NCBI GenBank assembly: GCA_002436105.1
Contig: DIXU01000001.1
Location: 265,500 to 329,499, forward strand
DNA length: 64,000 bases
Direction of reading: 5' to 3'
DNA from: Candidatus Aminicenantes bacterium UBA6072
GTDB taxonomy: Bacteria; Acidobacteriota; Aminicenantia; UBA2199
Positions 63 to 12,252 of this stretch are shown here, in pieces (the first letter of the stretch is position 1; every line of letters begins with the position of its first letter). Made by a program: the position numbers and the translations under genes. A model generated the notes under the pieces. That model was not told where the DNA came from and did not search any database. It saw only the letters and a list, made by a program, of their open reading frames with translations.

Positions 63-1505
63 TCAGGATTTCCCCCACGGCACGGTCTCCGAGGTCAGGC
101 CGGCCGCCTGAAGGAAATTCCGGTAGCAGTCGTGGGGGTTGGCCATGTTGAAATCGCCGGTCATGGTATAGGCCAATCCCGGGCAGCTGCCGTTGCAAAA
201 GGGGGCCCATTCGCAATCCCTGCAGCCGGGAACGCTCGTCATCGGGATCTGCCGCCGTTCCTTGAGCGCCTGCAGCGTGGGATCGGCCTTCCAAATGGTC
301 TGAATGGAATCCCGGTTGATGCGCCCGAGCTCCAGCCCGGCCAGCATGTTGCAGGGCGAGATGATGCCGTCGTGGTGCACCGCCAGCTTGTTGTACATGC
401 AGCCGCAGGCGGTCAGGAAGCCCATTCGCCAGCGCTTGGCCTTTTCGCCGGTAGCCCTGGCATGCTCCATCTCGCCGTACGATTTCCATTTGGCCAATGG
501 CCCGGCCGTGGCATTGATGCGGCCGCTGTGTTTCTCCTCCAGGCGGATCAATGCCTTCATCGCCTGGAATTGCTGCCCCGGCAGCAGGGTGATTCCGGCC
601 TGGTTGTCGCAGCCCGCCCCCATGGGCATGGCGTCGTTGGTGCCTATACTGTGCAGCCCAACGTCTTCCAGAAGCAATTTCGCGATGTTATCGAGGTCTT
701 CGACGTTATGCCGATTGATGGTCACCCGCGAGGTCGCCGGAAAGCCCGCCTCCTTCAGGAGCCGTAGGCCGCGAATCGCCCTCTCGAACGAGCCCTTGCC
801 CCGGCTCTTGTCGTGGATTTCGGCGCAGGAGCCGTCGATCGACACCTGGATGGAGTTCAGCCGCAGCCGGCGCTTTTTTTCTTCCAGGCGCGCGATCATC
901 CTTTCGTCGATCAGCGTGCCGTTGCTCAGGATCGAGAAACTCATGCGTTTTTCGATGATCCGATCGATCAGATCAAAGAGGTCCTTACGGACAAAAACCT
1001 CGCCGCCGCTCAGGGTCAGGGTGCGCACGCCCAGCCGGCCCAGCTCGTCAAAAAAAGTCAGCCATTCCGTTGTGGAAAGATCGGGCCGGTCGTGCATCTC
1101 GTGAGCATAAAAGCAATACTCGCAATGGAGATTGCACTTGCCGGTCAATGAAATGTCGAAATCTCCCGGCCGGTCCGAGATTTCGGCGTACTCTTCGGGA
1201 GCGAGCCGCTGCAAGCCTTCCGGCGCGACCTCGATGAATTCGCCTTCCAGGAGCTCGCCCATGAAGTCGCAGACGTCTTTAAAAATGTCCTCATCGGGCG
1301 CCCCCTCATAATCCTCGAGCAGGGCGCGGGCGATCTCCTCGGCGCTGTTGCCGCCGTCGAGCTTCCGCCAGACCGCGAATCCCGTTTGATTGATGACCTT
1401 GTCCCGGCCCGCATCCGGGTTGAAAAGGATGGCATTGTCGCCCTGGCGGCACGTGGAGATTTTCGGGGCCCTTCCGTACTTTATCCGAAAATCGAGCTCT
1501 TTCAT
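63..1505 (-). CDS. Radical SAM/SPASM-domain peptide-modifying enzyme with N-terminal PqqD-like RiPP recognition element
   Basis: 480-aa ORF. The N-terminal ~95 aa resemble PqqD/RRE (ILFNPDAGRDKVINQTGFAVWRKLDGGNSAEEIARALLEDY). A CNLHCEYCFY CxxxCxxC radical-SAM cluster motif follows. The C-terminal segment is Cys-rich (7 Cys; CNMLAG...PGCRDCEWAPFCNGSCPG...HDCY), typical of a SPASM/twitch auxiliary cluster domain. Confidence 0.85.
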   Translation of the reverse strand: MKELDFRIKYGRAPKISTCRQGDNAILFNPDAGRDKVINQTGFAVWRKLDGGNSAEEIARALLEDYEGAPDEDIFKDVCDFMGELLEGEFIEVAPEGLQRLAPEEYAEISDRPGDFDISLTGKCNLHCEYCFYAHEMHDRPDLSTTEWLTFFDELGRLGVRTLTLSGGEVFVRKDLFDLIDRIIEKRMSFSILSNGTLIDERMIARLEEKKRRLRLNSIQVSIDGSCAEIHDKSRGKGSFERAIRGLRLLKEAGFPATSRVTINRHNVEDLDNIAKLLLEDVGLHSIGTNDAMPMGAGCDNQAGITLLPGQQFQAMKALIRLEEKHSGRINATAGPLAKWKSYGEMEHARATGEKAKRWRMGFLTACGCMYNKLAVHHDGIISPCNMLAGLELGRINRDSIQTIWKADPTLQALKERRQIPMTSVPGCRDCEWAPFCNGSCPGLAYTMTGDFNMANPHDCYRNFLQAAGLTSETVPWGKS

Positions 1506-1604
1506 CTGCGAACCGAAGATCTCCCCGATCGATCACGCCCTGGGCAAGAATCGTTAGGGGGTAGTTTATGGCAATCTCAGGGATTTGTCAAACGGATATC
1601 GCTG

Positions 1605-2125
1605 GGGCGAGGGGATGCCACGAAGCCGAAGGTTCCATGTTCCACGTTCCATGTTCCACGTTCCATGTTCCACGTTCCACGTTCCATGTTCCACGTTCCA
1701 TGTTCCATGTTCCACGTTCCATGTTCCACGTTCCATGTTCCACGTTCCATGTTCCACGTTCCACGTTCCATGTTTGCAACAGATGTAGTTATTAATTGGG
1801 AATTTGGTGCTTGGTATTTGGCATTTAAGTCCTAATATTGGCTTTTTTGACCGTAAACCGTTTACTGTCTACCGTCAACCGATTGGAATTACGAGCAATG
1901 GTATTTGTCGTTATGCGTTATCCTTGATGAGAAAGAACCAGAGATGATCTTCTCTCTGACTATCACTACCACTATCACTACCACTCAGGGCTGTTAGCTC
2001 TCCTGCTAACACGATCACTAACACTACCATTCGGCTTGTTTTTCGTTCTTGCTGACACTGACACTGTCACTGACACTGGATTCCGTTCTGGTCTCCGGCT
2101 ACCACTATCACTACCACTGATCCTG
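1605..2125. repeat. Composite intergenic repeat element, copy A (heptamer array + GGTGCTTGG module + ACCGTAAACCG module + GATGAGAAAGAAC module + TNNCAC hexamer arrays)
   Basis: Large blocks are near-identical to 3972-4400 (same orientation) and to 5548-5885 (reverse complement). Examples are GGGGATGCCRCGAAGCCGAAGG, GGAATTTGGTGCTTGG, GACCGTAAACCG, GCAATGGTATT and GATGAGAAAGAAC. Copies A and B additionally share CTATCACTACCACT, TTCTTGCTGACACTGACACTGTCACTGACACTGG and a GTTAGC-N6-GCTAAC hairpin. Copy A lies between the divergent rSAM and ABC genes and ends in the ABC promoter region. Confidence 0.8.
1632..1771. repeat. (GTTCCAY)n heptanucleotide tandem array, about 20 units, the VNTR-like module of copy A
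   Basis: Direct reading shows alternating GTTCCAC/GTTCCAT units. Homologous arrays of about 7 units (4015-4066) and about 5 units (5810-5845, inverted) occur in copies B and C. On the minus strand the 21-nt period encodes (M/V)E(H/R)GTWN in all three frames. Confidence 0.85.
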
Positions 2126-2148: not shown

Positions 2149-3963
<1,815 letters not shown>

Positions 3964-3971
3964 GCCGGAAA

Positions 3972-4400
3972 TGGCGAGGACGAGGGGATGGCCAAGAAGC
4001 CGAAGGTTCCATGTTCCACGTTCCACGTTCCACGTTCCATGTTCCATGTTCCACGTTGGCAACTGATGTAGAATTCTTTGGAATTTGGTGCTTAGGATTT
4101 GGAATTTATGCCCTGATATTGCATTTTTCTGACCGTCAACCGTAAACCAATTGCAATTGCAAGCAATGGTATTATTCTTGATTCGTGATGCGTAATGCGT
4201 GATGAGAAAGAACAAAAGATGCTCTTCTCTCTGACTATCACTACCACTAAGAGCTGTTAGCCCTCCTGCTAGCACTATCACTAACACTCGGCTTGTTTTT
4301 CGTTCTTGCTGACACTGACACTGTCACTGACACTGGATCCCGCTCCAACCTCTGGCTACCACTACCACTAAGGGCTGTCAGTGCTAACACTTGTCGCGGA
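3972..4400. repeat. Composite intergenic repeat element, copy B
   Basis: Same module order as copy A, with about 7 heptamer units. It lies immediately downstream of the ABC exporter. Confidence 0.8.
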
Positions 4401-4469
4401 TTTCTTTTTTCCTGACTTGCAAGTTGGTTTTCTCTATGGTATTTTTGTACAGGAAAATGGAGGTTTGTC

Positions 4470-4886
4470 ATGAAAAAAATAGTGCTTCTCCTTGCGGTTT
4501 CTTTGCTCCTCACGGGCTGCGTCTGTTTCCCGACGGCCGGCGGGCTTCCGGAGGGGAAGCAGGTCAAGGTCAACATCCAGGACAAGACCTTCAAGGGCGA
4601 GCTGCTTTCAGTGACCCAGGAGTTGATCGTCATCCGCTACAAGGACAAGGACAAGGACAAGGAAATCGTCCTGGGCTGCCCGACCAATGAGACCGAATTG
4701 GTGAAAGTGAAGAGGGGCTGCGGCCCGATCGTCGGCCTGCTCTCCAAGGACAAGAAGTACAGATTCAAGGATACCCCCCCGGCCAAGATCGGTGAGAATA
4801 TCATCGACCTCTCCCACGACTCCCTCTACGCATCCAAGATGCCCGATTGGGTCAAGGAGCAGATGACGCTCCTCAGCCAGCTTTGA
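4470..4886 (+). CDS. Small lipoprotein, hypothetical
   Basis: 138 aa with signal peptide and lipobox (LLLTGC) and a KDKDKDKE low-complexity stretch. AGGAG-like SD (ggaaaatggagg) upstream. Confidence 0.55.
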   Translation: MKKIVLLLAVSLLLTGCVCFPTAGGLPEGKQVKVNIQDKTFKGELLSVTQELIVIRYKDKDKDKEIVLGCPTNETELVKVKRGCGPIVGLLSKDKKYRFKDTPPAKIGENIIDLSHDSLYASKMPDWVKEQMTLLSQL

Positions 4887-4919
4887 TCCGATTCCTGTCG
4901 GAACACTCTTTTTACGAAA

Positions 4920-5543
4920 GTGAGGCGCCTGTTTGATCTGGTTCTGAGATTGGCCATCGTCTTTTTTTCCCTGTGGCTTCACGACAGGGTGCGCGTGTGG
5001 ATGGCCGGCCGCTGCGGCGACCGCGAAGCCGCCTCCCGGCAGCGGTCGCCGGAAAACCCCTTTGCCCGCGTCGACTGGATCGGCAGCGTGCTGCTCCCCG
5101 CATTTCTTGTTTTCCGCGGCCAGCCGGTGCTGGGCTGGGCCAGGCCCCTCGAGTTGGACGCCGACAAATTGCCCCGCCCCCGGCGGGATGCCCTGCGGAT
5201 CGCCATGGCCGGCCCGTCGGCGAACCTGCTGCTGGCGCTGGCCGGCATCGGTATTTTCCGCGGCCTGGACTCCGCCGGGCTGCTGACCTCGCCAATCCTG
5301 ATACAGATCCTGCCGTTTTTCTGCCTGACCAATGCCTGCCTCGCCGTCTTCAACCTGCTGCCCATCCCGCCGCTGGCCGCCAGCGGCGCCGCCGAGCAGT
5401 TCCTGGGCGGCGACGCCCTTTCTTCCTTTGAAGACATCAAGCCCTTCGGCTTTCTCCTGCTGCTGGCCGGGGTCTATTTCAATTTCTTCGATTTTCTCAC
5501 CATACCGCTGAGCCGGCTGGTCAACACGATGCTGGGATTCTGA
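4920..5543 (+). CDS. Peptidase M50 (site-2 protease) family homolog with substituted catalytic motifs (putative pseudo-protease)
   Basis: 207-aa polytopic membrane protein with a GTG start. Where M50 enzymes carry HExxH it has LHDRVRV. Where they carry NxxPxxxLDG it has NLLPIPPLAASG. The Glu, second His and Asp ligands all appear replaced. Confidence 0.55.
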   Translation: MRRLFDLVLRLAIVFFSLWLHDRVRVWMAGRCGDREAASRQRSPENPFARVDWIGSVLLPAFLVFRGQPVLGWARPLELDADKLPRPRRDALRIAMAGPSANLLLALAGIGIFRGLDSAGLLTSPILIQILPFFCLTNACLAVFNLLPIPPLAASGAAEQFLGGDALSSFEDIKPFGFLLLLAGVYFNFFDFLTIPLSRLVNTMLGF

Positions 5544-5547
5544 AGGA

Positions 5548-5885
5548 ACATTGTCAATAACAGTGCCGTTAATTGAAATCGGTTTACGGTAGACGGTAAA
5601 CGGTTTACGGTAAGAGAAGAACCAGCCATCTCTTGTTCTTTCTCATCAGGCATAACGCGTCACGCATCACGAATAATACCATTGCTTGTAATTGCAATCG
5701 GTTTACGGTTGACGGTAAACGGTTTTCGGTAAAAATAAGGTAATATCAGGACTTAAATCCCAAAACCCAAGCACCAAATTCCAAATAATCAAGTACATCC
5801 GTTGCCAACGTGGAACATGGAACGTGGAACGTGGAACATGGAACCTTCGGCTTCGCGGCATCCCCTCGCCTCTTCCTTCTATTGA
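5548..5885. repeat. Composite intergenic repeat element, copy C (inverted orientation, lacks the hexamer arrays, ACCGTAAACCG module duplicated)
   Basis: Reverse complement matches copies A/B through the GGGGATGCCGCGAAGCCGAAGG, heptamer, GGTGCTTGG, ACCGTAAACCG and GATGAGAAAGAAC modules. It sits between the M50-like gene and the S46 peptidase promoter. Confidence 0.8.
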
Positions 5886-5942: not shown

Positions 5943-8099
5943 ATGCGCATCATGATCTTCTGCACGCTGTTCCTGGCCGCCCTGGCGCTGCCCGCCGTCG
6001 AGGGCATGTTCCCCGTCGACGGCATCACCCCAACCATCATTGCCGACATGAAGGCCCTGGGATGCCGCTTCGACCCGGCCGAGATCTGGAAGCCCGGCGA
6101 AAAGTGCCTGGCCATGGCCGTGGCCAACCTCGGCGCCACCGGCTCCTTCGTCTCCGCCGACGGTCTCATCATCACCAACCACCACGTGGCCTTCGGCGCC
6201 GTGCAGAGCCTCTCCTCGCCGGAGCGCAACTACATCCGCGACGGCTTCCTGGCTGCCGGCCGCGGGCAGGAGGTCCCCGCCCCGGGCTACAGCGTGCGGG
6301 TCATGACCGGCTACGAGAACGTCACCCCGCGCTTCCGCGCCGCGCTGCGCGCCGGGCTGGACCCCGCCAAGCGCCAGCAGCTGGTGGAAAGGATCTCCAA
6401 GCGGCTGGTCGCCGAGGGCGAGAAGACCCCGGGCAACGAGTGCGCCGTGGCGGCGTTCTACGGCGGGCTGGAGTTCTTCCGCGTAACCTATTTCAAGATC
6501 CGCGACATGCGCGTGGTTTACGTGCCGGCGCGCTCGGTGGGCGAATACGGCGGCGAGGTGGACAACTGGATGTGGCCGCGCCACACCGGCGATTTCTCCT
6601 TCCTGCGCGCCTACGTGGGCCGCGACGGCCGCCCGGCCGATTATTCCCCCGACAACGTCCCCTTCCGGCCGCTGCATTATTTCCCCGTCGCCAGGACGCC
6701 GCTGCGCGCGGGCGATTTCACCATGATCCTGGGCTACCCCGGAACGACCAAGCGCTGGCTCACGGCCGCCGAGGTGGCCAACGAGGTCGAAGCCAGCTAT
6801 CCCGGCCGCATCGCCCTGCTCGAGCGCTACATCGAACTCGTCGAGAAGCTGTCGGCCGCCGACGAGGGGGTGAGGATCAAGAACGCCGGCATGCTCAAGG
6901 GGCTGTACAACTCGATCAAGAACAACCGCGGCATGCTCGTCGGCCTCGTGCGCGACTCGGTCCTGCGGCAGCGGCGCCAGGCCGAGAGCGAGCTGGCGTC
7001 CTGGATCGCCGCCGATCCCGCCCGGCAAAAGCGCCACGGCCGCCTGCTGGCGGACATCGAGCGCCTGGCCGCCGAGGAGCGCGAGATCGCTTCCCTGGCC
7101 ACGATCAGCGGCTGGCTGACGCGGGGCTGCCGCCTGCTGGACTGGGCCCTGACCCTGAACCAGTGGGGACGCGAGAAAACCAGGAAGAACCTGGACCGCC
7201 AGACCGGCTTCCTGGACCGCGACATGGCCAACCGCATGGCGCGGCTGCCCATCAGCCAGCGCAACCTCGACCTGGCCACCGACAGGGCCGTCTTCGCCTT
7301 TTTTATGGGCCAACTCCTGGATGCCGACCCTGCCGGCCATTTCAGGAAGCTGGCGCAGGAGGTCGAGCGCTTCCCCGGCGCTGACCGCGCCGCGAGGATC
7401 CAGGCCTTCGCCGACCATCTCTACCAGGGCACGCGCCTGGCCGACCTGGACTTCAAGCAAAGGATGTTCGCCTCCGACGCCAGGGCCATGGCCGCCGCCG
7501 GCGACCCGTTCCTGGACCTGGCGGCCAGGATCCAGCCCGCCTTCGACGCCCTCGACCGCCGCCGCAGCGCCATCAGCGGCAACTGGCTCGAGCTGAAGCC
7601 CCTTTACGTCCAGGCCATGAGGCAGGCGCGGCCGCTGGCGCCGCCCTACCCCGACGCCAACCGCACGCTGCGCTTCAGCTACGGGCGCGTCGAGGGCTAC
7701 GCCCCGCGCGACGCCGTGCGCTACGCCCCCTTCACCACCCTGGCCGGCGTGCTGGCCAAGCACAGCGGCGCAGCCCCCTTCAACCTCAGCGACGCGTTCA
7801 TCGCCGCCGCCGCAGGCGACGGGCGCCGGCGCCACGCCGACCCGGAGCTGGGCGACGTGCCGGTGAACTTCCTGACCAGCAACGACTCGACGGGCGGCAA
7901 TTCGGGCAGCCCGGTGCTCAACGCCGACGGCGAGCTGGTCGGCGTCCTCTTCGACGGCAACTACGAGTCGCTGGTCAGCGACTTCGTGTTCCAGCCCGGC
8001 CTGACCCGCTCCATTCACGTCGACATGCGCTACGTGCGCTATGTCGCCGACCAGGTCGACCGCGCCGCCCCGGTGCTGCGCGAGCTGGGACTGGAGTGA
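5943..8099 (+). CDS. Peptidase S46 family dipeptidyl-peptidase (DPP7/DPP11-like), secreted
   Basis: 718 aa with signal peptide. The N-terminal block is GATGSFVSADGLIITNHHV and the C-terminal catalytic Ser block is GGNSGSPVLNADGELVGVLFDGN, both characteristic of S46. Confidence 0.9.
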   Translation: MRIMIFCTLFLAALALPAVEGMFPVDGITPTIIADMKALGCRFDPAEIWKPGEKCLAMAVANLGATGSFVSADGLIITNHHVAFGAVQSLSSPERNYIRDGFLAAGRGQEVPAPGYSVRVMTGYENVTPRFRAALRAGLDPAKRQQLVERISKRLVAEGEKTPGNECAVAAFYGGLEFFRVTYFKIRDMRVVYVPARSVGEYGGEVDNWMWPRHTGDFSFLRAYVGRDGRPADYSPDNVPFRPLHYFPVARTPLRAGDFTMILGYPGTTKRWLTAAEVANEVEASYPGRIALLERYIELVEKLSAADEGVRIKNAGMLKGLYNSIKNNRGMLVGLVRDSVLRQRRQAESELASWIAADPARQKRHGRLLADIERLAAEEREIASLATISGWLTRGCRLLDWALTLNQWGREKTRKNLDRQTGFLDRDMANRMARLPISQRNLDLATDRAVFAFFMGQLLDADPAGHFRKLAQEVERFPGADRAARIQAFADHLYQGTRLADLDFKQRMFASDARAMAAAGDPFLDLAARIQPAFDALDRRRSAISGNWLELKPLYVQAMRQARPLAPPYPDANRTLRFSYGRVEGYAPRDAVRYAPFTTLAGVLAKHSGAAPFNLSDAFIAAAAGDGRRRHADPELGDVPVNFLTSNDSTGGNSGSPVLNADGELVGVLFDGNYESLVSDFVFQPGLTRSIHVDMRYVRYVADQVDRAAPVLRELGLE

Positions 8100-9025
8100 T
8101 GGAGAAGATCGCGCTGCTCTTCAACCCCAGCTCCGGCAAGGGCCGGGCGGCGCAGAACCGCCGCGCCCTGCAGCGCTGCCTGCGCGAGCAGGGGATCGCC
8201 TACGACTGGTTCGAGTCGCGCCACGAGGACGACCTGCGCGACCTGGTGGCCGTAACCGCCGAGGACTACCCCCGGCTGGTCGCCGCCGGCGGCGACACGA
8301 CGCTGCTGATCGTGATCAACGAGCTGATGCGCCTGAAGGCCGACAACACCCTGGGCATGATCGGCCTCGGCTCCTGCAACGACGTGGTGCGGGAATTCGG
8401 CATCCAAACCATGAAGAAGGCCTGCCTGGCCATCCGCCGCGGCCGCACGCGCCCGATCGACCTAGGGGCGGTGCGCGAGGGGAAAAAGGTCCTGCGCTAC
8501 TATCCGGGGCAGGCCTCCCTCGGCCTGGCGGTGCTGATCAACCAGTTCGTCAACCAGGTGGTGCAGCGCAGCCCGCGCCTTGGCAAGTACCAGACCCTGT
8601 CGGGGCTGCGCGGCGGCTGGCAGGCCTGCCGCTCCTCCGAGATGCCGATCCGTCTGGAGGTGGAGCATGCGAACGGCCGGGTCAGCGGCGAGTTCATGCT
8701 GGCCGTCTTCGACAACATCCGCTACTACGCCGCCGGCCGCAAGGCCCTGCCCCAGGCACGACCCGACGACGGGCTGCTCGACGCCCTGCTGATCCGCAAG
8801 TGCTCGTTCCCGCGCCTGGCCTATCTCGCCCTGCTGACCCCGCCCGCGTTCTATGCCGAAAAGAAGGAGGCGCTGGTCCTGCAGGCGGCGAACTTCCAGG
8901 TGAGCGCCGAGAAGGATTTCACCGTCCAGGTCGACGGCGAGGTCCTGAGCCAGGACGGGCAGCCGCGTTCCTTCCGCAGCCTGGAGTTCGCCTCGGTGCC
9001 GCGGGCGCTGAAGATCATTTCCTGA
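8099..9025 (+). CDS. Diacylglycerol/lipid kinase catalytic-domain protein (YegS/DAGK_cat family)
   Basis: About 308 aa. LLFNPSSGKG and GGDTTL motifs fit the DAGK_cat family (GGDGT-like). Start overlaps the S46 stop (TGATG), suggesting co-transcription. Confidence 0.8.
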   Translation: MEKIALLFNPSSGKGRAAQNRRALQRCLREQGIAYDWFESRHEDDLRDLVAVTAEDYPRLVAAGGDTTLLIVINELMRLKADNTLGMIGLGSCNDVVREFGIQTMKKACLAIRRGRTRPIDLGAVREGKKVLRYYPGQASLGLAVLINQFVNQVVQRSPRLGKYQTLSGLRGGWQACRSSEMPIRLEVEHANGRVSGEFMLAVFDNIRYYAAGRKALPQARPDDGLLDALLIRKCSFPRLAYLALLTPPAFYAEKKEALVLQAANFQVSAEKDFTVQVDGEVLSQDGQPRSFRSLEFASVPRALKIIS

Positions 9026-9072
9026 TCCTTCCGCCTGTGCTATAATCCCGAAAAAGACCATGGGGGTGCACG

Positions 9073-9270
9073 ATGAAGTACAAGCTGTTCACCGGACAGG
9101 GAGCCGACCTGGAAAAGAAGATCAACGATTGGCTCACGCCCAACATCGAGCTGCTGCACATCGCCCAGAGCACGGTCAGCGCCATGGTCGGCGAGCGCAC
9201 CGTTCCCTACACCATCCTCTCGGTTTTTTACAACGAGCGGGGGATCGTCGAGCAGCGCAATCTGGACTGA
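9073..9270 (+). CDS. Small hypothetical protein (65 aa)
   Basis: ORF with non-biased composition, preceded by tgcTATAATcc. No recognisable motif. Confidence 0.35.
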   Translation: MKYKLFTGQGADLEKKINDWLTPNIELLHIAQSTVSAMVGERTVPYTILSVFYNERGIVEQRNLD

Positions 9271-9363
9271 GAAACCGGCACTCGGCGTAAGGCGCACGGT
9301 GGACGGCGTTCGGCTAAAAGAAGAACTGTGGATCGTTTCGTTGCCCTATTGGGCAACGAAGAA

Positions 9364-9448
9364 TGCCGGAGAAGGGAATCGAACCCTTATGAGGGAAATC
9401 CTCGTCAGATTTTGAGTCTGATGCGTCTGCCAATTCCGCCACTCCGGC
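9364..9448 (-). tRNA. tRNA-Leu (anticodon CAA)
   Basis: Reverse complement folds as a type-II tRNA. Acceptor is GCCGGAG/CTCCGGC, the anticodon loop is CTCAAAA, there is a long variable arm, and the T-loop is GGTTCGATTCC. Confidence 0.85.
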
Positions 9449-9547
9449 CCAGAATCAGAAATGCATTATAATCAGCGCCCGTTGCTTTGTCAACGCGGGC
9501 GGAAGGAAGTGCCGGTGAAACAGTGGCGCTGCCAGATTCTTCTCTTT

Positions 9548-9612
9548 GTTTTGGTCATTAGGTAATTGGTGCTTGGAATTTATTTGTGATTTGGTGCTTG
9601 GGATTTGGAATT
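9548..9612. repeat. Partial copy of the GGTGCTTGG module of the composite repeat (tandemly duplicated)
   Basis: attGGTGCTTGGaatttatttgtgatttGGTGCTTGGgatttggaatttt matches the gaatttGGTGCTTGGtatttgg module of copies A-C. It lies in the divergent region between tRNA-Leu and the M14 gene. Confidence 0.6.
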
Positions 9613-9696
9613 TTATTCTTCTGAATACCTTTTTCTGACTTTTGCCTTTTTCCTTTTACCTTTAAAGGGTTTATAATCGATTTTCGAGGAGGCGCC

Positions 9697-12252
9697 ATGA
9701 AAAAAATTCTGCCGGTCATTCTGCTCCTGTCCGCGCTGGCCGCTCCGGCCCGGTCCCTTCAGACCCCCGACCAGTTCCTCGGCTTCCAGCTGGGTAGCGA
9801 CGGCAACCTGGCCCATTACGACCGCATCAAGGCCTACTTCGAGCATCTGGCCGGCGAATCCCCGCGCGTCCGGACCGTGACTCTCGGCAAGACCACCCTG
9901 GGCAATGACCTGTTCATGGCCCTCATCTCCTCGGAAGCCAACCTCAGGGACATGGACCGGATCAAGTCCGTCGCCCGCACCCTGGCCCAGGGCGAGGCCG
10001 ACGCGGCCGAGGCCGGGCGCCTGGCCGACTCGGGCAAGGCCATCGTCGCCATCACCTGCAACCTGCATTCCACCGAGATCGCCTCCTCGCAGATGGCCAT
10101 GGAGCTGGGTTACCGCCTGGCCGCCGGCGGCGCCGACGTCCGGGACATCCTGGACAGCGTCGTCGTGGCGCTGTTCCCCTCGGTCAACCCCGACGGCCAG
10201 ATCATGGAGGTGGAATGGTACGCCAGGACCCGCGGCACGGAATACGAGGGGACAAGTGCCCCCTACCTCTACCACTGGTACGCCGGCCACGACAACAACC
10301 GCGACTGGTTCAAGGGCAGCCTCAAGGAAACGGCGCTGATCCTGAAGGCGCTCTATCACGACCTGCACCCGCAGCTGCTGGTCGACGAGCACCAGATGGG
10401 CTCGAGCGGCGACCGCCTGTTCATCCCCCCCTACCAGGACCCGCCCACTCCGGGAGTGCACCCGCTGGTGTGGCGCAGCATCAACCTCATCGGCTCGCGC
10501 ATCGCCTATGACCTGGAAAAGCTCGGCCTGAAAGGGGTGGCCTCGCGCGGCTTCTTTACCGGCTGGTGGATCGGCTCGCTGGACGACACGGCCTGGTTTC
10601 ACAACATCCCCGGAATCCTGTTCGAGGGGGCCTCGACGCGCCTGGCCTCGCCGATCTACGTCGAGCCCGAGGAGGTGCAGAGCGCCGAGAGCCCCGGCAA
10701 CGAGGAGCGCATCTTCAGCCCCAGCCCCTGGCAGGGCGGCTGGTGGCGCCTCGCCGACCTGATGCGCTACGACCTGCAGGCCACCCTGTCGGTGCTGGCC
10801 ACGTCGGCGCGCATGCGCAGGGAACTGCTGCTCGACACCTGGCAGGCGGCGCGCGAGAACATCGCCCGCGGCCGCGACGAGGCGCCCTACGCCTTCGTCA
10901 TCCCGCGCCGGCAGCACGACCCGGGGGCGGCCGAGCGCCTGGTCCAGGTCCTGCTCCGCTCCGGCATCCGCGTCTTCCGGCTCAGCCACCCCGCCCGCGT
11001 CGGCGATACGATGTTCGACAAGCGCTCCTATGTCGTCCCCCTGTCGCAGCCCTACCGCGCCTTCGTCAAGAACATCTTCGAGAAGCAGCGCTATCCCGAC
11101 CTGCGCAGGGATCGCAAGGCCGATCCGGAACTGCCGTACGACATGGCCGCCTGGACACTGCCCCTGGGCATGGGCGTGCGCAGCGAGGCGGTCAACGAAC
11201 CGCTGCAGGCCGTGATGGAGCCGGTCGGCGCCGAACCGTCGCCGCCGCTTCCCTTTCCCGAAGAGCTTGAGGAATACATCGTCCTCGACGCGCGCCACAA
11301 CGCCTCCTACCGCGCCGCCTTCGAGCTGCTGGGCAGGGGCAAGGCGGTCTACCGCAACCAGGACCACCCCGATTTTCCCCGGGGCTCGTTCCTGGTCAAG
11401 AAAAGCGAGACGCTGGAACTGCTGCGGGCCATCCACGCCGAGGCGCCGCTGGCCCCCGCCTCGAGAAAGGAGCTGCCGCTGGGGCAGTTCCGCCGCCTGC
11501 GGCCCTTCCAGGCCGGGCTCTACCAGAACTGGGGGCATAACATGACCGAGGGCTGGCTGCGCTACGTGTTCGACGAATACAAGGTCCCCTACGAGACGGT
11601 GCGCCCCAAGGACGCGGCCCGCAAGGACTGGGACAAGAAATTCGCCGTCATGGTCTTCGCCGGCGCCTCGGAGAGCGAGATCGAAACCGGCAAGCCGCCC
11701 AAGGAGCGGCAGAAGTGGGCGGCGCCGGTCCCGGCCGAATACTCGGGCGGCATCGGCGCGGAAGGCGAAAAGGAACTCAACGATCTGATAAAAAAGGGGA
11801 AAACCCTGGTCTTCATGGAAAATTCCTGCGACTACGCCATCAACAAGCTCAAGCTGCCGGTGAGCAACATCATGGAGAAGAATACCCGGGTGGTCTGCCC
11901 CGGCTCCTACCTGCGGGCGCAAGTGAAGGAATCGCCCCTGACCCTGGGCATGGACAGGAGCGCCGCCGTCTTCTTCCGCTCGACACCCACCTTCGAGACG
12001 CGGCTGCCCCGCGCCGCCGGCGAAAGCCGCTCCACGCCGCTGGTCTTCGGCGAGCGCGACCTGCTGCTGTCAGGCTGGCTGGATGGCGAGGAGCACCTGG
12101 CGCGCAGATCGCTGCTGGTCGATTATCGCCGGGGCAAGGGCCGGATCATCCTCATCGGTCCCGACGTCGTCCACCGCACCCACGGCGAGGGGACGTACAA
12201 GATCATCTTCAACTCGCTGCTGGCCGCCGCCGAAGAGAACCAGAAGAAGTAA
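9697..12252 (+). CDS. M14 family metallocarboxypeptidase-like protein, secreted, large multi-domain (851 aa)
   Basis: Signal peptide, then an M14-like N-terminal domain (HSTEIASSQMAMEL..., HDNNRDW, ...DEHQMGS). ttTATAATcg box and GGAGG SD upstream. Confidence 0.8.
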   Translation: MKKILPVILLLSALAAPARSLQTPDQFLGFQLGSDGNLAHYDRIKAYFEHLAGESPRVRTVTLGKTTLGNDLFMALISSEANLRDMDRIKSVARTLAQGEADAAEAGRLADSGKAIVAITCNLHSTEIASSQMAMELGYRLAAGGADVRDILDSVVVALFPSVNPDGQIMEVEWYARTRGTEYEGTSAPYLYHWYAGHDNNRDWFKGSLKETALILKALYHDLHPQLLVDEHQMGSSGDRLFIPPYQDPPTPGVHPLVWRSINLIGSRIAYDLEKLGLKGVASRGFFTGWWIGSLDDTAWFHNIPGILFEGASTRLASPIYVEPEEVQSAESPGNEERIFSPSPWQGGWWRLADLMRYDLQATLSVLATSARMRRELLLDTWQAARENIARGRDEAPYAFVIPRRQHDPGAAERLVQVLLRSGIRVFRLSHPARVGDTMFDKRSYVVPLSQPYRAFVKNIFEKQRYPDLRRDRKADPELPYDMAAWTLPLGMGVRSEAVNEPLQAVMEPVGAEPSPPLPFPEELEEYIVLDARHNASYRAAFELLGRGKAVYRNQDHPDFPRGSFLVKKSETLELLRAIHAEAPLAPASRKELPLGQFRRLRPFQAGLYQNWGHNMTEGWLRYVFDEYKVPYETVRPKDAARKDWDKKFAVMVFAGASESEIETGKPPKERQKWAAPVPAEYSGGIGAEGEKELNDLIKKGKTLVFMENSCDYAINKLKLPVSNIMEKNTRVVCPGSYLRAQVKESPLTLGMDRSAAVFFRSTPTFETRLPRAAGESRSTPLVFGERDLLLSGWLDGEEHLARRSLLVDYRRGKGRIILIGPDVVHRTHGEGTYKIIFNSLLAAAEENQKK

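What the first reader, a model, noticed from the sequence alone, without database searches (positions are those of the whole stretch)
4920..5543. M50/site-2-protease homolog with all three zinc-site motifs substituted (HDRVR for HExxH, LAASG for LDG)
The protein keeps the M50 membrane topology and the NLLPIPPL signature. However, the catalytic Glu is Asp, the second His is Arg, and the Asp of the LDG zinc ligand is Ala. A triple substitution is unlikely to be sequencing noise and suggests a pseudo-protease, possibly a regulatory or scaffolding paralog. It is retained inside the repeat-bracketed cassette next to the peptide-modification genes.
Basis: seen in the sequence. Interest (0 to 1): 0.55.

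Follow-up and report, generated by a model that had tools for sequence, protein, structure and literature searches.

The report
Conserved zinc-less site-2 protease homolog
This gene encodes a membrane protein that keeps the fold of a site-2 (M50) zinc protease but has lost its zinc-binding and catalytic residues in every known relative, so it is most likely a bacterial "pseudoprotease" of unknown role, always paired with a small exported protein.

Summary
ORF 4920-5543 (+) encodes 207 aa that read HDRVR where M50 proteases have HExxH, and NLLPIPPLAASG where they have NxxPxPPLDG.

It is neither sequencing noise nor a decaying gene:
- None of 120 ortholog clusters (65-100% identity, Aminicenantes MAGs) has the canonical residue at any of the four positions.
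- dN/dS is 0.16-0.30.
- The GTG start is conserved in 14 of 14 genomes, and an in-frame stop lies 33 nt upstream.

The gene always follows a 138-aa exported small beta-barrel protein. The pair always lies between an ABC exporter with its radical-SAM (SynChlorMet) peptide-modification genes and a block of peptidase genes. In this genome the pair is inverted between inverted repeats.

My verdict is a clade-wide, selected, almost certainly non-proteolytic S2P homolog. Its function is inferred only, and any link to the peptide-modification genes is unproven. It is a new variant of a known kind; the closest described case is plant EGY3.

The parts
4920..5543 (+). M50/site-2-protease homolog, 207 aa, GTG start ('M50L'); conserved zinc-less variant
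4980..4994 (+). HDRVR in place of HExxH: first His kept, catalytic Glu replaced by Asp, second zinc-binding His replaced by Arg
   Evidence: Sequence. In 114 orthologs with this region: 0 have E at position 22 and 0 have H at 25; R25 occurs in 112 of 114. Canonical relatives have E in 100% and H in 99%.
5055..5075 (+). NPFARVD in place of the subfamily motif NPxxHxD; invariant His replaced by invariant Arg (R50, 5067-5069)
   Evidence: H in 100% of 73 canonical relatives; R in 120 of 120 orthologs.
5349..5387 (+). FNLLPIPPLAASG: the N/P-rich M50 signature is kept; the Asp of LDG (third zinc ligand) is replaced by Ala153 (5376-5378)
   Evidence: Sequence. Position 153 across 120 orthologs is A 107, S 9, P 3, T 1 and D 0. 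Canonical relatives have PPLDG.
4470..4886 (+). Partner gene: 138-aa exported protein (lipobox LLTGC here, a type-I signal peptide in some orthologs), small beta-barrel plus helices, two conserved Cys. It lies 33 nt upstream of M50L, in the same frame and strand.
3978..4370 (+). Composite intergenic repeat, copy B: (GTTCCAY)n array followed by further short-period arrays. It forms the left inverted-repeat arm flanking the gene pair.
5556..5870 (-). Composite intergenic repeat, copy C, inverted relative to copies A and B. It forms the right arm flanking the gene pair.
   Evidence: I2: 90 nt, 91%; I4: 76 nt, 80%; I7/I8: 92-94%.
1604..2113 (+). Composite intergenic repeat, copy A, direct with copy B. 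Copies A and B bracket the ABC exporter gene.
   Evidence: families D1-D5 and D8.
2149..3963 (+). ABC exporter (transmembrane domain plus nucleotide-binding domain, no peptidase domain); a constant neighbour of the pair
   Evidence: Pfam and NCBIfam. Adjacent to the pair in every locus that extends far enough.
63..1505 (-). PqqD-fused radical SAM/SPASM maturase, ScmE-like (SynChlorMet cassette); edge of a larger radical-SAM/PqqD/ScmC gene cluster that lies left of the window
   Evidence: TIGR04250 scores 396.1 bits against a cutoff of 400. The cluster beyond the window is shown in L026/L027.
5943..8099 (+). S46 (DPP7-like) peptidase, first gene of the conserved S46/DAGK/65-aa/M14 block on the other side of the pair

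Best explanation
The gene encodes a functional, selected but non-proteolytic descendant of the small, PDZ-less M50/site-2-protease subfamily: a bacterial S2P 'pseudoprotease'.

Shown:
- The M50 core fold and the non-catalytic signature residues are kept (GD, R42, NP, D52, GW, AGP..N, N138, FNLLPxPPL).
- Four residues that are invariant or nearly so in active relatives are replaced throughout the clade: the general-base Glu by Asp, the second zinc His by Arg, the third zinc ligand Asp by Ala/Ser, and the subfamily His of NPxxHxD by Arg.
- The clade has also gained its own invariant residues: R40, R66, E159, D165, E171 and K174.
- The gene is always paired with an upstream gene for a small exported beta-barrel protein.

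Inferred:
- With two of three ligands gone, the protein cannot hold the catalytic zinc. The invariant Arg25, and possibly Arg50, occupy the former metal site and stabilise it through charge.
- The retained substrate groove now binds rather than cuts a peptide or transmembrane segment. The protein acts with its exported partner as a membrane/periplasm binding, scaffolding or gating module, by analogy with EGY3 and the iRhoms.
- Its client is unknown. The adjacent ABC exporter and radical-SAM peptide cluster is the leading candidate but is unproven.
For: - Motif replacement in the sequence itself and in alignment with 73 canonical relatives.
- Among 120 ortholog clusters, 0 have E22, H25, H50 or D153, whereas R50 is 120/120 and R25 is 112/114.
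- Purifying selection: dN/dS 0.16-0.30 against 13 orthologs, with no stop codons.
- The N-terminal helix carrying HDRVR is coding. The GTG start is conserved 14/14, and codon-position variability is 0.30/0.17/0.50.
- The exhaustive representative search puts the clade in one 50%-identity cluster. Scores then fall from 320 to 121 bits, and 140 of the 149 other listed hits have HExxH, nearly all also with PPLDG and most with NPxxHxD. The 9 without HExxH are clade fragments or mostly N-terminally truncated entries.
- Numerous clade-specific invariant positions argue for a new function rather than mere loss.
- The pairing with the 138-aa exported protein is constant.
- Amino-acid identity to orthologs (65-75%) is similar to that of neighbouring housekeeping-type genes.
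- There is precedent for a functional S2P pseudoprotease: EGY3 lacks HExxH yet stabilises other chloroplast proteins (PMC10978774; PMC9355673).
Against: - No biochemical data exist. Loss of zinc binding and of proteolysis is inferred from residue identity alone.
- The first His is kept and the Glu becomes Asp, a conservative change, so a remodelled site cannot be formally excluded.
- I could not obtain model coordinates. The idea that Arg25/Arg50 fill the metal site rests only on the positional equivalence of residues 21, 25 and 153 with the zinc ligands.
- Physical interaction with the 138-aa partner is inferred from gene adjacency within one fairly narrow clade, where synteny is conserved in general.
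- The partner's fold is generic and gives no functional clue.
Confidence: 0.72

Rival explanations
1. The pseudoprotease pair is a working component of the neighbouring radical-SAM (SynChlorMet-type) peptide system. It could be a non-catalytic leader/peptide-binding escort for the ABC exporter, or a self-immunity or receptor-decoy protein. On this view it descends from an M50 protease of the kind seen as YydH in the Bacillus yydFGHIJ epipeptide operon.
For: - The pair abuts the ABC exporter in every locus that extends far enough. Radical-SAM/SPASM hits lie beyond the exporter in nearly all loci with enough sequence.
- In relative L002 the exporter closes a co-directional ScmD-ScmE-ScmF-ScmC-peptidase-ABC operon.
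- The window's own genome has a large radical-SAM/PqqD/ScmC cluster immediately to the left.
- The pair-to-ABC junction is tight (from an 18-nt overlap to about 230 nt), whereas the S46 side tolerates insertions of 2-7 kb.
- An M50 protease next to a radical-SAM enzyme and an ABC transporter is a known RiPP layout: YydH, PMC7026026.
Against: - In most genomes the pair is convergent (tail to tail) with the exporter, so they are not co-transcribed.
- The S46/DAGK/M14 block on the other side is just as conserved. Synteny in this clade is therefore not specific evidence.
- The radical-SAM clusters already carry signal-peptidase-I-like or S24-like peptidase genes.
- Neither protein matches any SCM family model in NCBIfam.
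- I could not test whether SCM cassettes in other phyla carry any M50 gene.
Confidence: 0.2
2. The protein is still a hydrolase with a remodelled active site. The site would use H21 and D22 together with clade-specific acidic residues (E159, D165, E171), a different metal stoichiometry, or a metal-independent mechanism.
For: - H21 (109/114) and D22 (113/114) remain nearly invariant.
- New invariant acidic residues have appeared.
- Strong conservation of the NLLPIPPL groove suggests that a substrate is still bound.
Against: - Two of the three zinc ligands are replaced by residues that cannot ligate zinc (Arg, Ala).
- H21 itself is Q or N in 5 orthologs, and R25 is never H.
- All 140 full-length canonical relatives examined keep strict HExxH and LDG, which shows how little variation the active enzyme tolerates.
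- To my knowledge, no active M50 with an HDxxR-type motif has been described.
Confidence: 0.07
3. The true product is the 180-aa form starting at Met28, as called in public annotations of this genome. The 'HDRVR' helix would then not be translated, and the motif question would be moot for the first motif.
For: NCBI/JGI/ENA gene calls for this contig and several relatives give 180-aa proteins starting MAGRCGD (P0339, P0005, P0007).
Against: - The GTG at the position of 4920 is conserved in 14 of 14 genomes.
- Codons 2-27 show a coding pattern of variability (position 3 > 1 > 2), and S17, W19, H21, D22 and R25 are near-invariant.
- The helix at residues 2-31 is modelled at pLDDT 94-98 and corresponds to the HExxH helix of canonical relatives.
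- Met28 is not conserved as a start, and many orthologs have other residues nearby.
- Even if this were true, motifs 2 and 3 would remain substituted.
Confidence: 0.04
4. The finding is a sequencing or assembly artefact, or a recently inactivated pseudogene.
For: Each substitution is one nucleotide away from the canonical codon. Two related loci (L022, L023) show frameshifts.
Against: - The identical 207-aa protein occurs in independent assemblies from NCBI, ENA, JGI and Logan.
- The substitutions are fixed in 120 clusters.
- dN/dS is well below 1.
- The two frameshifted loci are MFD-labelled MAGs, and loci from MFD MAGs also show split ABC, ScmE and S46 hits. That points to indel errors.
Confidence: 0.01

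Closest known systems
Small PDZ-less M50 site-2 proteases ('site-2 protease family protein' / 'Zn-dependent protease', about 200-230 aa, with HExxH, NPxxHxD and FNLxPxPPLDG)
   Same: These are the direct sequence relatives, at 30-41% identity and E = 1e-30 to 1e-19. They share length, predicted helix layout and all non-catalytic signature residues.
   Different: The general-base Glu, two of the three zinc ligands and the subfamily His are replaced (E to D, H to R, D to A/S, H to R). The clade has its own invariant residues and a dedicated exported partner gene.
EGY3, the chloroplast S2P pseudoprotease of plants
   Same: It is an S2P homolog that lacks the zinc-binding HExxH motif, is conserved, and is functional without proteolysis, since it stabilises other proteins (PMC10978774; PMC9355673).
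   Different: EGY3 is reported only from plants (PMC9355673 abstract) and is a larger thylakoid protein. The present clade is bacterial (Aminicenantes), belongs to the small PDZ-less subfamily, and has also lost the LDG Asp. Homology with EGY3 beyond shared family membership was not tested, and an independent origin is most likely.
iRhoms and Derlins (rhomboid pseudoproteases)
   Same: They follow the same logic: an intramembrane protease fold that has lost its catalytic residues and acts by binding clients (PMC3149277).
   Different: They belong to a different, unrelated protease family (serine rhomboids) and are eukaryotic.
YydH of the Bacillus subtilis yydFGHIJ epipeptide operon
   Same: It is a membrane-bound putative protease (M50 family by my own recollection, which the cited paper does not state) encoded beside a radical-SAM peptide-modifying enzyme and an ABC transporter (PMC7026026).
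   Different: YydH is presumed to be the active processing protease and is co-transcribed with the operon. Here the homolog lacks the catalytic residues and is usually convergent with the exporter.
Solved S2P structures: MjS2P (3b4r), RseP (7w6z, 9j83), SpoIVFB (8vjl)
   Different: Sequence identity is only 18-20%. All of these have an intact zinc site, and RseP carries PDZ domains. No structure of the small subfamily was found by sequence search.

Membership tests
Peptidase family M50 / site-2 protease (Pfam PF02163) | Significant sequence similarity to family members | tested here: met
   phmmer gives E = 5e-30 to 1e-19 against canonical members. All 31 clade members tested hit PF02163 at E <= 0.01, the best at 1.5e-9. 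Caveat: the window protein scores 25.1 bits, below the Pfam gathering score of 27.2.
Peptidase family M50 / site-2 protease (Pfam PF02163) | M50 membrane core fold | tested here: met
Peptidase family M50 / site-2 protease (Pfam PF02163) | HExxH motif (two zinc ligands and the general-base Glu) | tested here: not met
   The motif reads HDRVR at 4980-4994. None of 114 orthologs has E22 or H25.
Peptidase family M50 / site-2 protease (Pfam PF02163) | LDG motif Asp (third zinc ligand) | tested here: not met
   The motif reads LAASG at 5373-5387. Position 153 is A, S, P or T, and never D, in 120 orthologs.
Peptidase family M50 / site-2 protease (Pfam PF02163) | N/P-rich segment preceding LDG (NxxPxxxL) | tested here: met
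   FNLLPIPPL at residues 144-152, with F144, P148, P150 and P151 invariant and N145 and L152 nearly so.
Peptidase family M50 / site-2 protease (Pfam PF02163) | Zinc binding and intramembrane proteolysis | not testable with these tools
   This needs purified protein (metal analysis, cleavage assay).
Small PDZ-less M50 subfamily (about 200-230 aa) | NPxxHxD motif with invariant His | tested here: not met
   The motif reads NPFARVD. Position 50 is R in 120 of 120 orthologs and H in 73 of 73 canonical relatives.
S2P pseudoproteases (EGY3-type) | S2P homology with loss of the zinc motif, yet conservation under selection | tested here: met
S2P pseudoproteases (EGY3-type) | Orthology or common origin with plant EGY3 | not tested
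   No EGY3 sequence was compared. EGY3 is reported as plant-only (PMC9355673), and the nearest relatives here are canonical bacterial proteins, so an independent origin is likely.
SynChlorMet (SCM) radical-SAM peptide-modification cassette | Match to a cassette family model (ScmC/D/E/F) or co-directional operon membership | tested here: not met
   Neither the M50 homolog nor its partner hits any NCBIfam model relevant to the cassette. The pair is convergent with the cassette's ABC gene in most genomes.
Known anti-phage defence proteins (PADLOC) | Match to a defence-system model | tested here: not met
   Neither protein gives a hit.

The most novel reading that the evidence does not exclude
A bacterial intramembrane pseudoprotease system of a kind I found undescribed in the searched literature. 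In it, an S2P scaffold whose zinc ion has been replaced by invariant arginine side chains works with a dedicated periplasmic beta-barrel protein as a non-catalytic peptide receptor, escort or immunity module for the adjacent radical-SAM RiPP exporter. The module's orientation, and therefore its expression, would be switchable by inversion between flanking repeats.
Probability: 0.12. Interest if true: 0.7.

Novelty: new variant of a known kind. Interest (0 to 1): 0.48.

Why it matters
Pseudoproteases of intramembrane protease families have proved to be important regulators in eukaryotes. iRhoms and Derlins do this for the rhomboids, and EGY3 does it for S2P in chloroplasts. In the literature I could search, S2P pseudoproteases are described only from plants.

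This clade is bacterial, selected and specific to one lineage, and it loses the catalytic and metal-site residues in a clean, complete way. That makes it a natural experiment on what the S2P fold does when it cannot cut. It also allows a direct test of whether arginines can structurally replace the zinc.

The finding flags a practical annotation problem as well. These proteins are labelled 'Zn-dependent protease' or 'site-2 protease family protein', or are truncated to 180 aa so that the altered motif disappears from view.

The biological role is unknown and the organisms are uncultured, so the immediate impact is moderate.

Tried and rejected
- Upstream start or alternative alignment that would supply a canonical HExxH. 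Rejected: an in-frame TGA lies at 4884-4886, the upstream ORF is a different protein without HExxH, and there is no second M50 homolog in the window or in 25 related loci.
- Pseudogene or sequencing noise. Rejected.
- An intermediate form in other phyla. The only non-Aminicenantes locus retrieved (L024, WOR-3, 31% identity) is fully canonical, with HEYAH, NPLSHLD and PPLDG. The most divergent clade member (L023, 55%) still has HDKAR, NPFARVD and PPLAG and is split by a probable indel error.
- NCBIfam, PADLOC and a PDB sequence search gave no useful match for the M50 homolog. Pfam, NCBIfam and PADLOC gave nothing for the partner beyond a chance-level RimP hit.
- The fold search on the partner returned only generic Sm/SH3-like small barrels with Z no higher than 6.1, which is uninformative.
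- Rfam found only tRNA-Leu in the first 10 kb. Promoter and terminator scans around the pair were at chance level.
- Literature searches found nothing for 'SynChlorMet', nothing relevant for Aminicenantes plus radical SAM, and no bacterial S2P pseudoprotease.
- Not done: I did not spend the third homolog search. I judged that a search for a canonical small-M50 or RseP paralog in the same genomes was unlikely to give a taxonomically interpretable answer. Model coordinates are not returned, so no distances around the former zinc site could be measured.

Full report
**1. What is in the sequence**

The ORF at 4920-5543 on the + strand starts with GTG and encodes 207 aa.
- Residues 21-25, at nt 4980-4994 (CAC GAC AGG GTG CGC), read HDRVR.
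- Residues 145-152 read NLLPIPPL.
- Residues 152-156, at nt 5373-5387, read LAASG.

The in-frame codon at 4884-4886 is TGA. It is also the stop codon of the upstream gene. The reading frame therefore cannot be extended upstream to pick up a canonical HExxH, and the upstream protein contains none. No second M50 homolog exists in the 64-kb window or in the 25 related loci I fetched.

**2. Whether the protein is an M50 homolog and the residues are equivalent**

Pfam PF02163 scores 25.1 bits for this protein, just below the gathering threshold of 27.2. All 31 clade members I scanned hit PF02163, the best at E = 1.5e-9.

An exhaustive phmmer search of 1.84 billion representative proteins gave 5614 hits. 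All other full-length clade members collapse into a single representative (P0025, 320 bits); the other clade hits listed are fragments. Scores then drop to 121 bits and identities to 41% or less. Of the 149 further listed proteins, 140 carry HExxH, nearly all also carry PPLDG, and most carry NPxxHxD. The nine without HExxH are fragments of this clade or mostly N-terminally truncated entries.

I aligned 30 clade members with 73 canonical relatives (A2). The positions that are conserved in both groups but differ between them are:
- E22 to D (canonical E in 100%)
- H25 to R (canonical H in 99%)
- G41 to Q
- H50 to R (canonical H in 100%)
- V77 to L

Everything else that marks the subfamily is retained: H21, G33-D34, R42, N46-P47, D52, G55, P60, G72-W73, A97-G98-P99, N102, N138 and F144-N-L-x-P-x-P-P-L152.

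**3. Whether this is noise or decay**

It is neither.
- The identical 207-aa sequence occurs in independent assemblies held by NCBI, ENA, JGI and Logan.
- Across the 120 best ortholog clusters (65-100% identity, almost all exactly 207 aa), position 22 is never E, position 25 is never H, position 50 is R in 120 of 120, and position 153 is never D.
- Nei-Gojobori dN/dS between the window gene and 13 orthologous genes is 0.16-0.30, with no internal stops.
- The GTG start is conserved in 14 of 14 genomes. Codons 2-27 show coding-type variability, with mean pairwise differences of 0.30, 0.17 and 0.50 at codon positions 1, 2 and 3.

The last point matters because public gene calls for this very contig, and for several relatives, start at Met28. 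That gives a 180-aa product lacking the altered first motif (P0339, P0005, P0007). I consider those calls too short.

Two related loci, L022 and L023, are frameshifted. Both come from MFD-labelled MAGs. Loci from MFD MAGs also show split hits in the ABC, ScmE and S46 genes, which points to indel errors rather than decay.

**4. Fold**

The M50 core is therefore intact. Coordinates are not returned by the tool, so I could not measure the geometry around the former zinc site. Residues 21, 25 and 153 are the positional equivalents of the three zinc ligands, and in a retained fold they must converge on one point. Arg25 is therefore expected to sit where the metal was. This is an inference.

**5. 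Distribution and context**

A scan of one genome per GTDB species found 22 loci. Twenty-one belong to this clade. Most are labelled Aminicenantes or Acidobacteriota, and four carry other labels (three 'uncultured Clostridia' and one 'Chrysiogenales'). The twenty-second is a canonical protein from WOR-3.

In every clade locus with enough flanking sequence, the gene is immediately preceded by the 138-aa gene at window 4470-4886. The pair lies between two conserved blocks:
- On one side is an MsbA/bacteriocin-type ABC exporter, with radical-SAM/SPASM, PqqD and ScmC genes of the SynChlorMet type beyond it.
- On the other side is an S46 peptidase / diacylglycerol-kinase-like / 65-aa / M14 carboxypeptidase block.

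The 138-aa protein has a signal peptide, with a lipobox in some members and a type-I site in others. It has two conserved cysteines, no Pfam domain and only 67 detectable homologs, all uncharacterised (the two named ones are from Aminicenantes). Its predicted fold is an Sm/SH3-like small barrel, which is functionally uninformative.

In the window's own genome, the region just left of the window holds a large radical-SAM/PqqD/ScmC cluster.

The link to peptide modification remains unproven, for three reasons:
- In most genomes the pair is convergent with the exporter, so they are not co-transcribed.
- The peptidase block on the other side is equally syntenic.
- The radical-SAM clusters carry their own signal-peptidase-I-like or S24-like genes, which could serve as leader peptidases.

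**6. The 'repeat-bracketed cassette'**

A composite intergenic element occurs three times in the window and nowhere else in it. It is built from short-period arrays: (GTTCCAY)n, (ACCGTNA)n, (ACTAYC)n and (CTGACA)n.
- Copy A lies at about 1604-2113.
- Copy B lies at about 3978-4370 and is direct with copy A.
- Copy C lies at about 5556-5870 and is inverted.

Copies B and C therefore flank the gene pair as inverted repeats, with arms of up to 90 nt at 91% and 112 nt at 84% complementarity.

Comparison with relatives shows that the pair is inverted in the window and in L004, L006 and L013, relative to the other loci in which both flanks can be read. All four inverted genomes have flanking inverted repeats. 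Five genomes checked in the common orientation (L005, L008, L011, L014, L016) have none of note.

This is a local inversion at a fixed chromosomal site, not a mobile cassette. Whether it still flips is unknown.

**7. Mechanism**

Shown: the protein is a selected M50-fold membrane protein. Its general base and two of its three zinc ligands are replaced, and so is the subfamily-invariant His of NPxxHxD. It has gained its own invariant charged residues (R25, R40, R50, R66, E159, D165, E171, K174). It is always encoded with an exported partner.

Inferred: the protein does not bind catalytic zinc and does not cleave. The arginines stabilise the vacated site. The preserved NLLPIPPL region and the loop equivalent to the substrate-binding beta-hairpin still bind a peptide or transmembrane segment. 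The protein therefore acts as a binding, scaffolding or gating module together with its partner.

The closest functional precedent is plant EGY3. It is an S2P homolog without HExxH that stabilises other proteins and is reported only from plants (PMC10978774; PMC9355673). The iRhoms are the rhomboid analogue (PMC3149277).

A role in the neighbouring radical-SAM peptide system is attractive but unproven; I give it about 0.2. The YydH-type layout is the model for this idea (PMC7026026). A remodelled but still active hydrolase is unlikely, at about 0.07.

**8. Verdict**

The pseudoprotease interpretation is strongly supported at the level of sequence, evolution and fold. The 'regulatory/scaffolding paralog' and 'cassette' parts of the interpretation are not established.

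I found no description of a bacterial S2P pseudoprotease in the searchable literature. That library is incomplete, and MEROPS-style 'non-peptidase homologues' of M50 may be catalogued elsewhere.

I rate the finding as a new variant of a known kind, of moderate interest.

Noticed in passing
window 1604-2113, 3978-4370, 5556-5870: A composite intergenic element built from consecutive short-period arrays: (GTTCCAY)n with up to 20 copies, (ACCGTNA)n, (ACTAYC)n and (CTGACA)n. It occurs three times, only in the three intergenic regions around the ABC gene and the M50-like pair, and nowhere else in the 64 kb. The heptamer array recurs in only one relative (L006). Its nature (regulatory array, MITE-like element or recombination substrate) is unknown.
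   Followed up: partly
window 3978-5870 compared with L004, L005, L006, L008, L011, L013, L014, L016: The two-gene segment (138-aa gene plus M50-like gene) is inverted in the window, L004, L006 and L013 relative to the other relatives in which both flanks can be read. All four inverted genomes have inverted repeats flanking the segment. Five genomes in the common orientation have none of note. This may be repeat-mediated inversion, or even an invertible switch. No recombinase gene was seen nearby.
   Followed up: partly
window 5001-5543 (Met28 start) versus 4920: Public gene calls for this contig and several relatives (P0339, P0005, P0007; L026) start the M50-like gene at Met28, giving 180 aa and dropping the helix that carries HDRVR. 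Conservation of the GTG start and the codon-position pattern indicate that the 207-aa form is correct.
   Followed up: yes
window 63-1505 (-) and L026/L027 11463-21443: The ScmE-like radical SAM/SPASM protein has an N-terminal PqqD fusion and scores 396.1 bits against TIGR04250, whose cutoff is 400. Just outside the window, the same genome carries what look like two or three SCM-like sets: several radical-SAM genes, four PqqD-type genes, ScmC, a radical-SAM-ScmC fusion, a methyltransferase and an S24-like peptidase. No precursor peptide was identified.
   Followed up: partly
window 4470-4886 and alignment A3: The 138-aa partner protein switches between a lipoprotein signal (L-S/T-A/G-C) and a plain type-I signal peptide (FSA-LWL..AAD) in different orthologs. 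It keeps two invariant or nearly invariant cysteines (C70, C84), probably forming a periplasmic disulfide.
   Followed up: partly
window 9073-9270 (+): A 65-aa ORF with no Pfam hit on record is conserved at 69-98% identity and in the same position (after the DAGK-like gene) in the related loci that reach that far. It is likely a real small protein.
   Followed up: no
window 9364-9448 (-): tRNA-Leu (anticodon CAA), lying between the 65-aa ORF and the M14 carboxypeptidase gene.
   Followed up: yes
L001/L008, L020, L022, L023 (MFD-labelled MAG contigs): Several genes (ABC, ScmE, S46 and the M50-like gene) appear split into overlapping or frameshifted pieces in these assemblies. This looks like indel error rather than biology and should not be read as pseudogenisation.
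   Followed up: partly
window 5943-12252: The pair sits beside a conserved run of exported peptidases: an S46 DPP7-like dipeptidyl peptidase and an 851-aa M14 carboxypeptidase-domain protein. A diacylglycerol-kinase/YegS-like gene lies between them. Whether this block relates to the pair is unknown.
   Followed up: no
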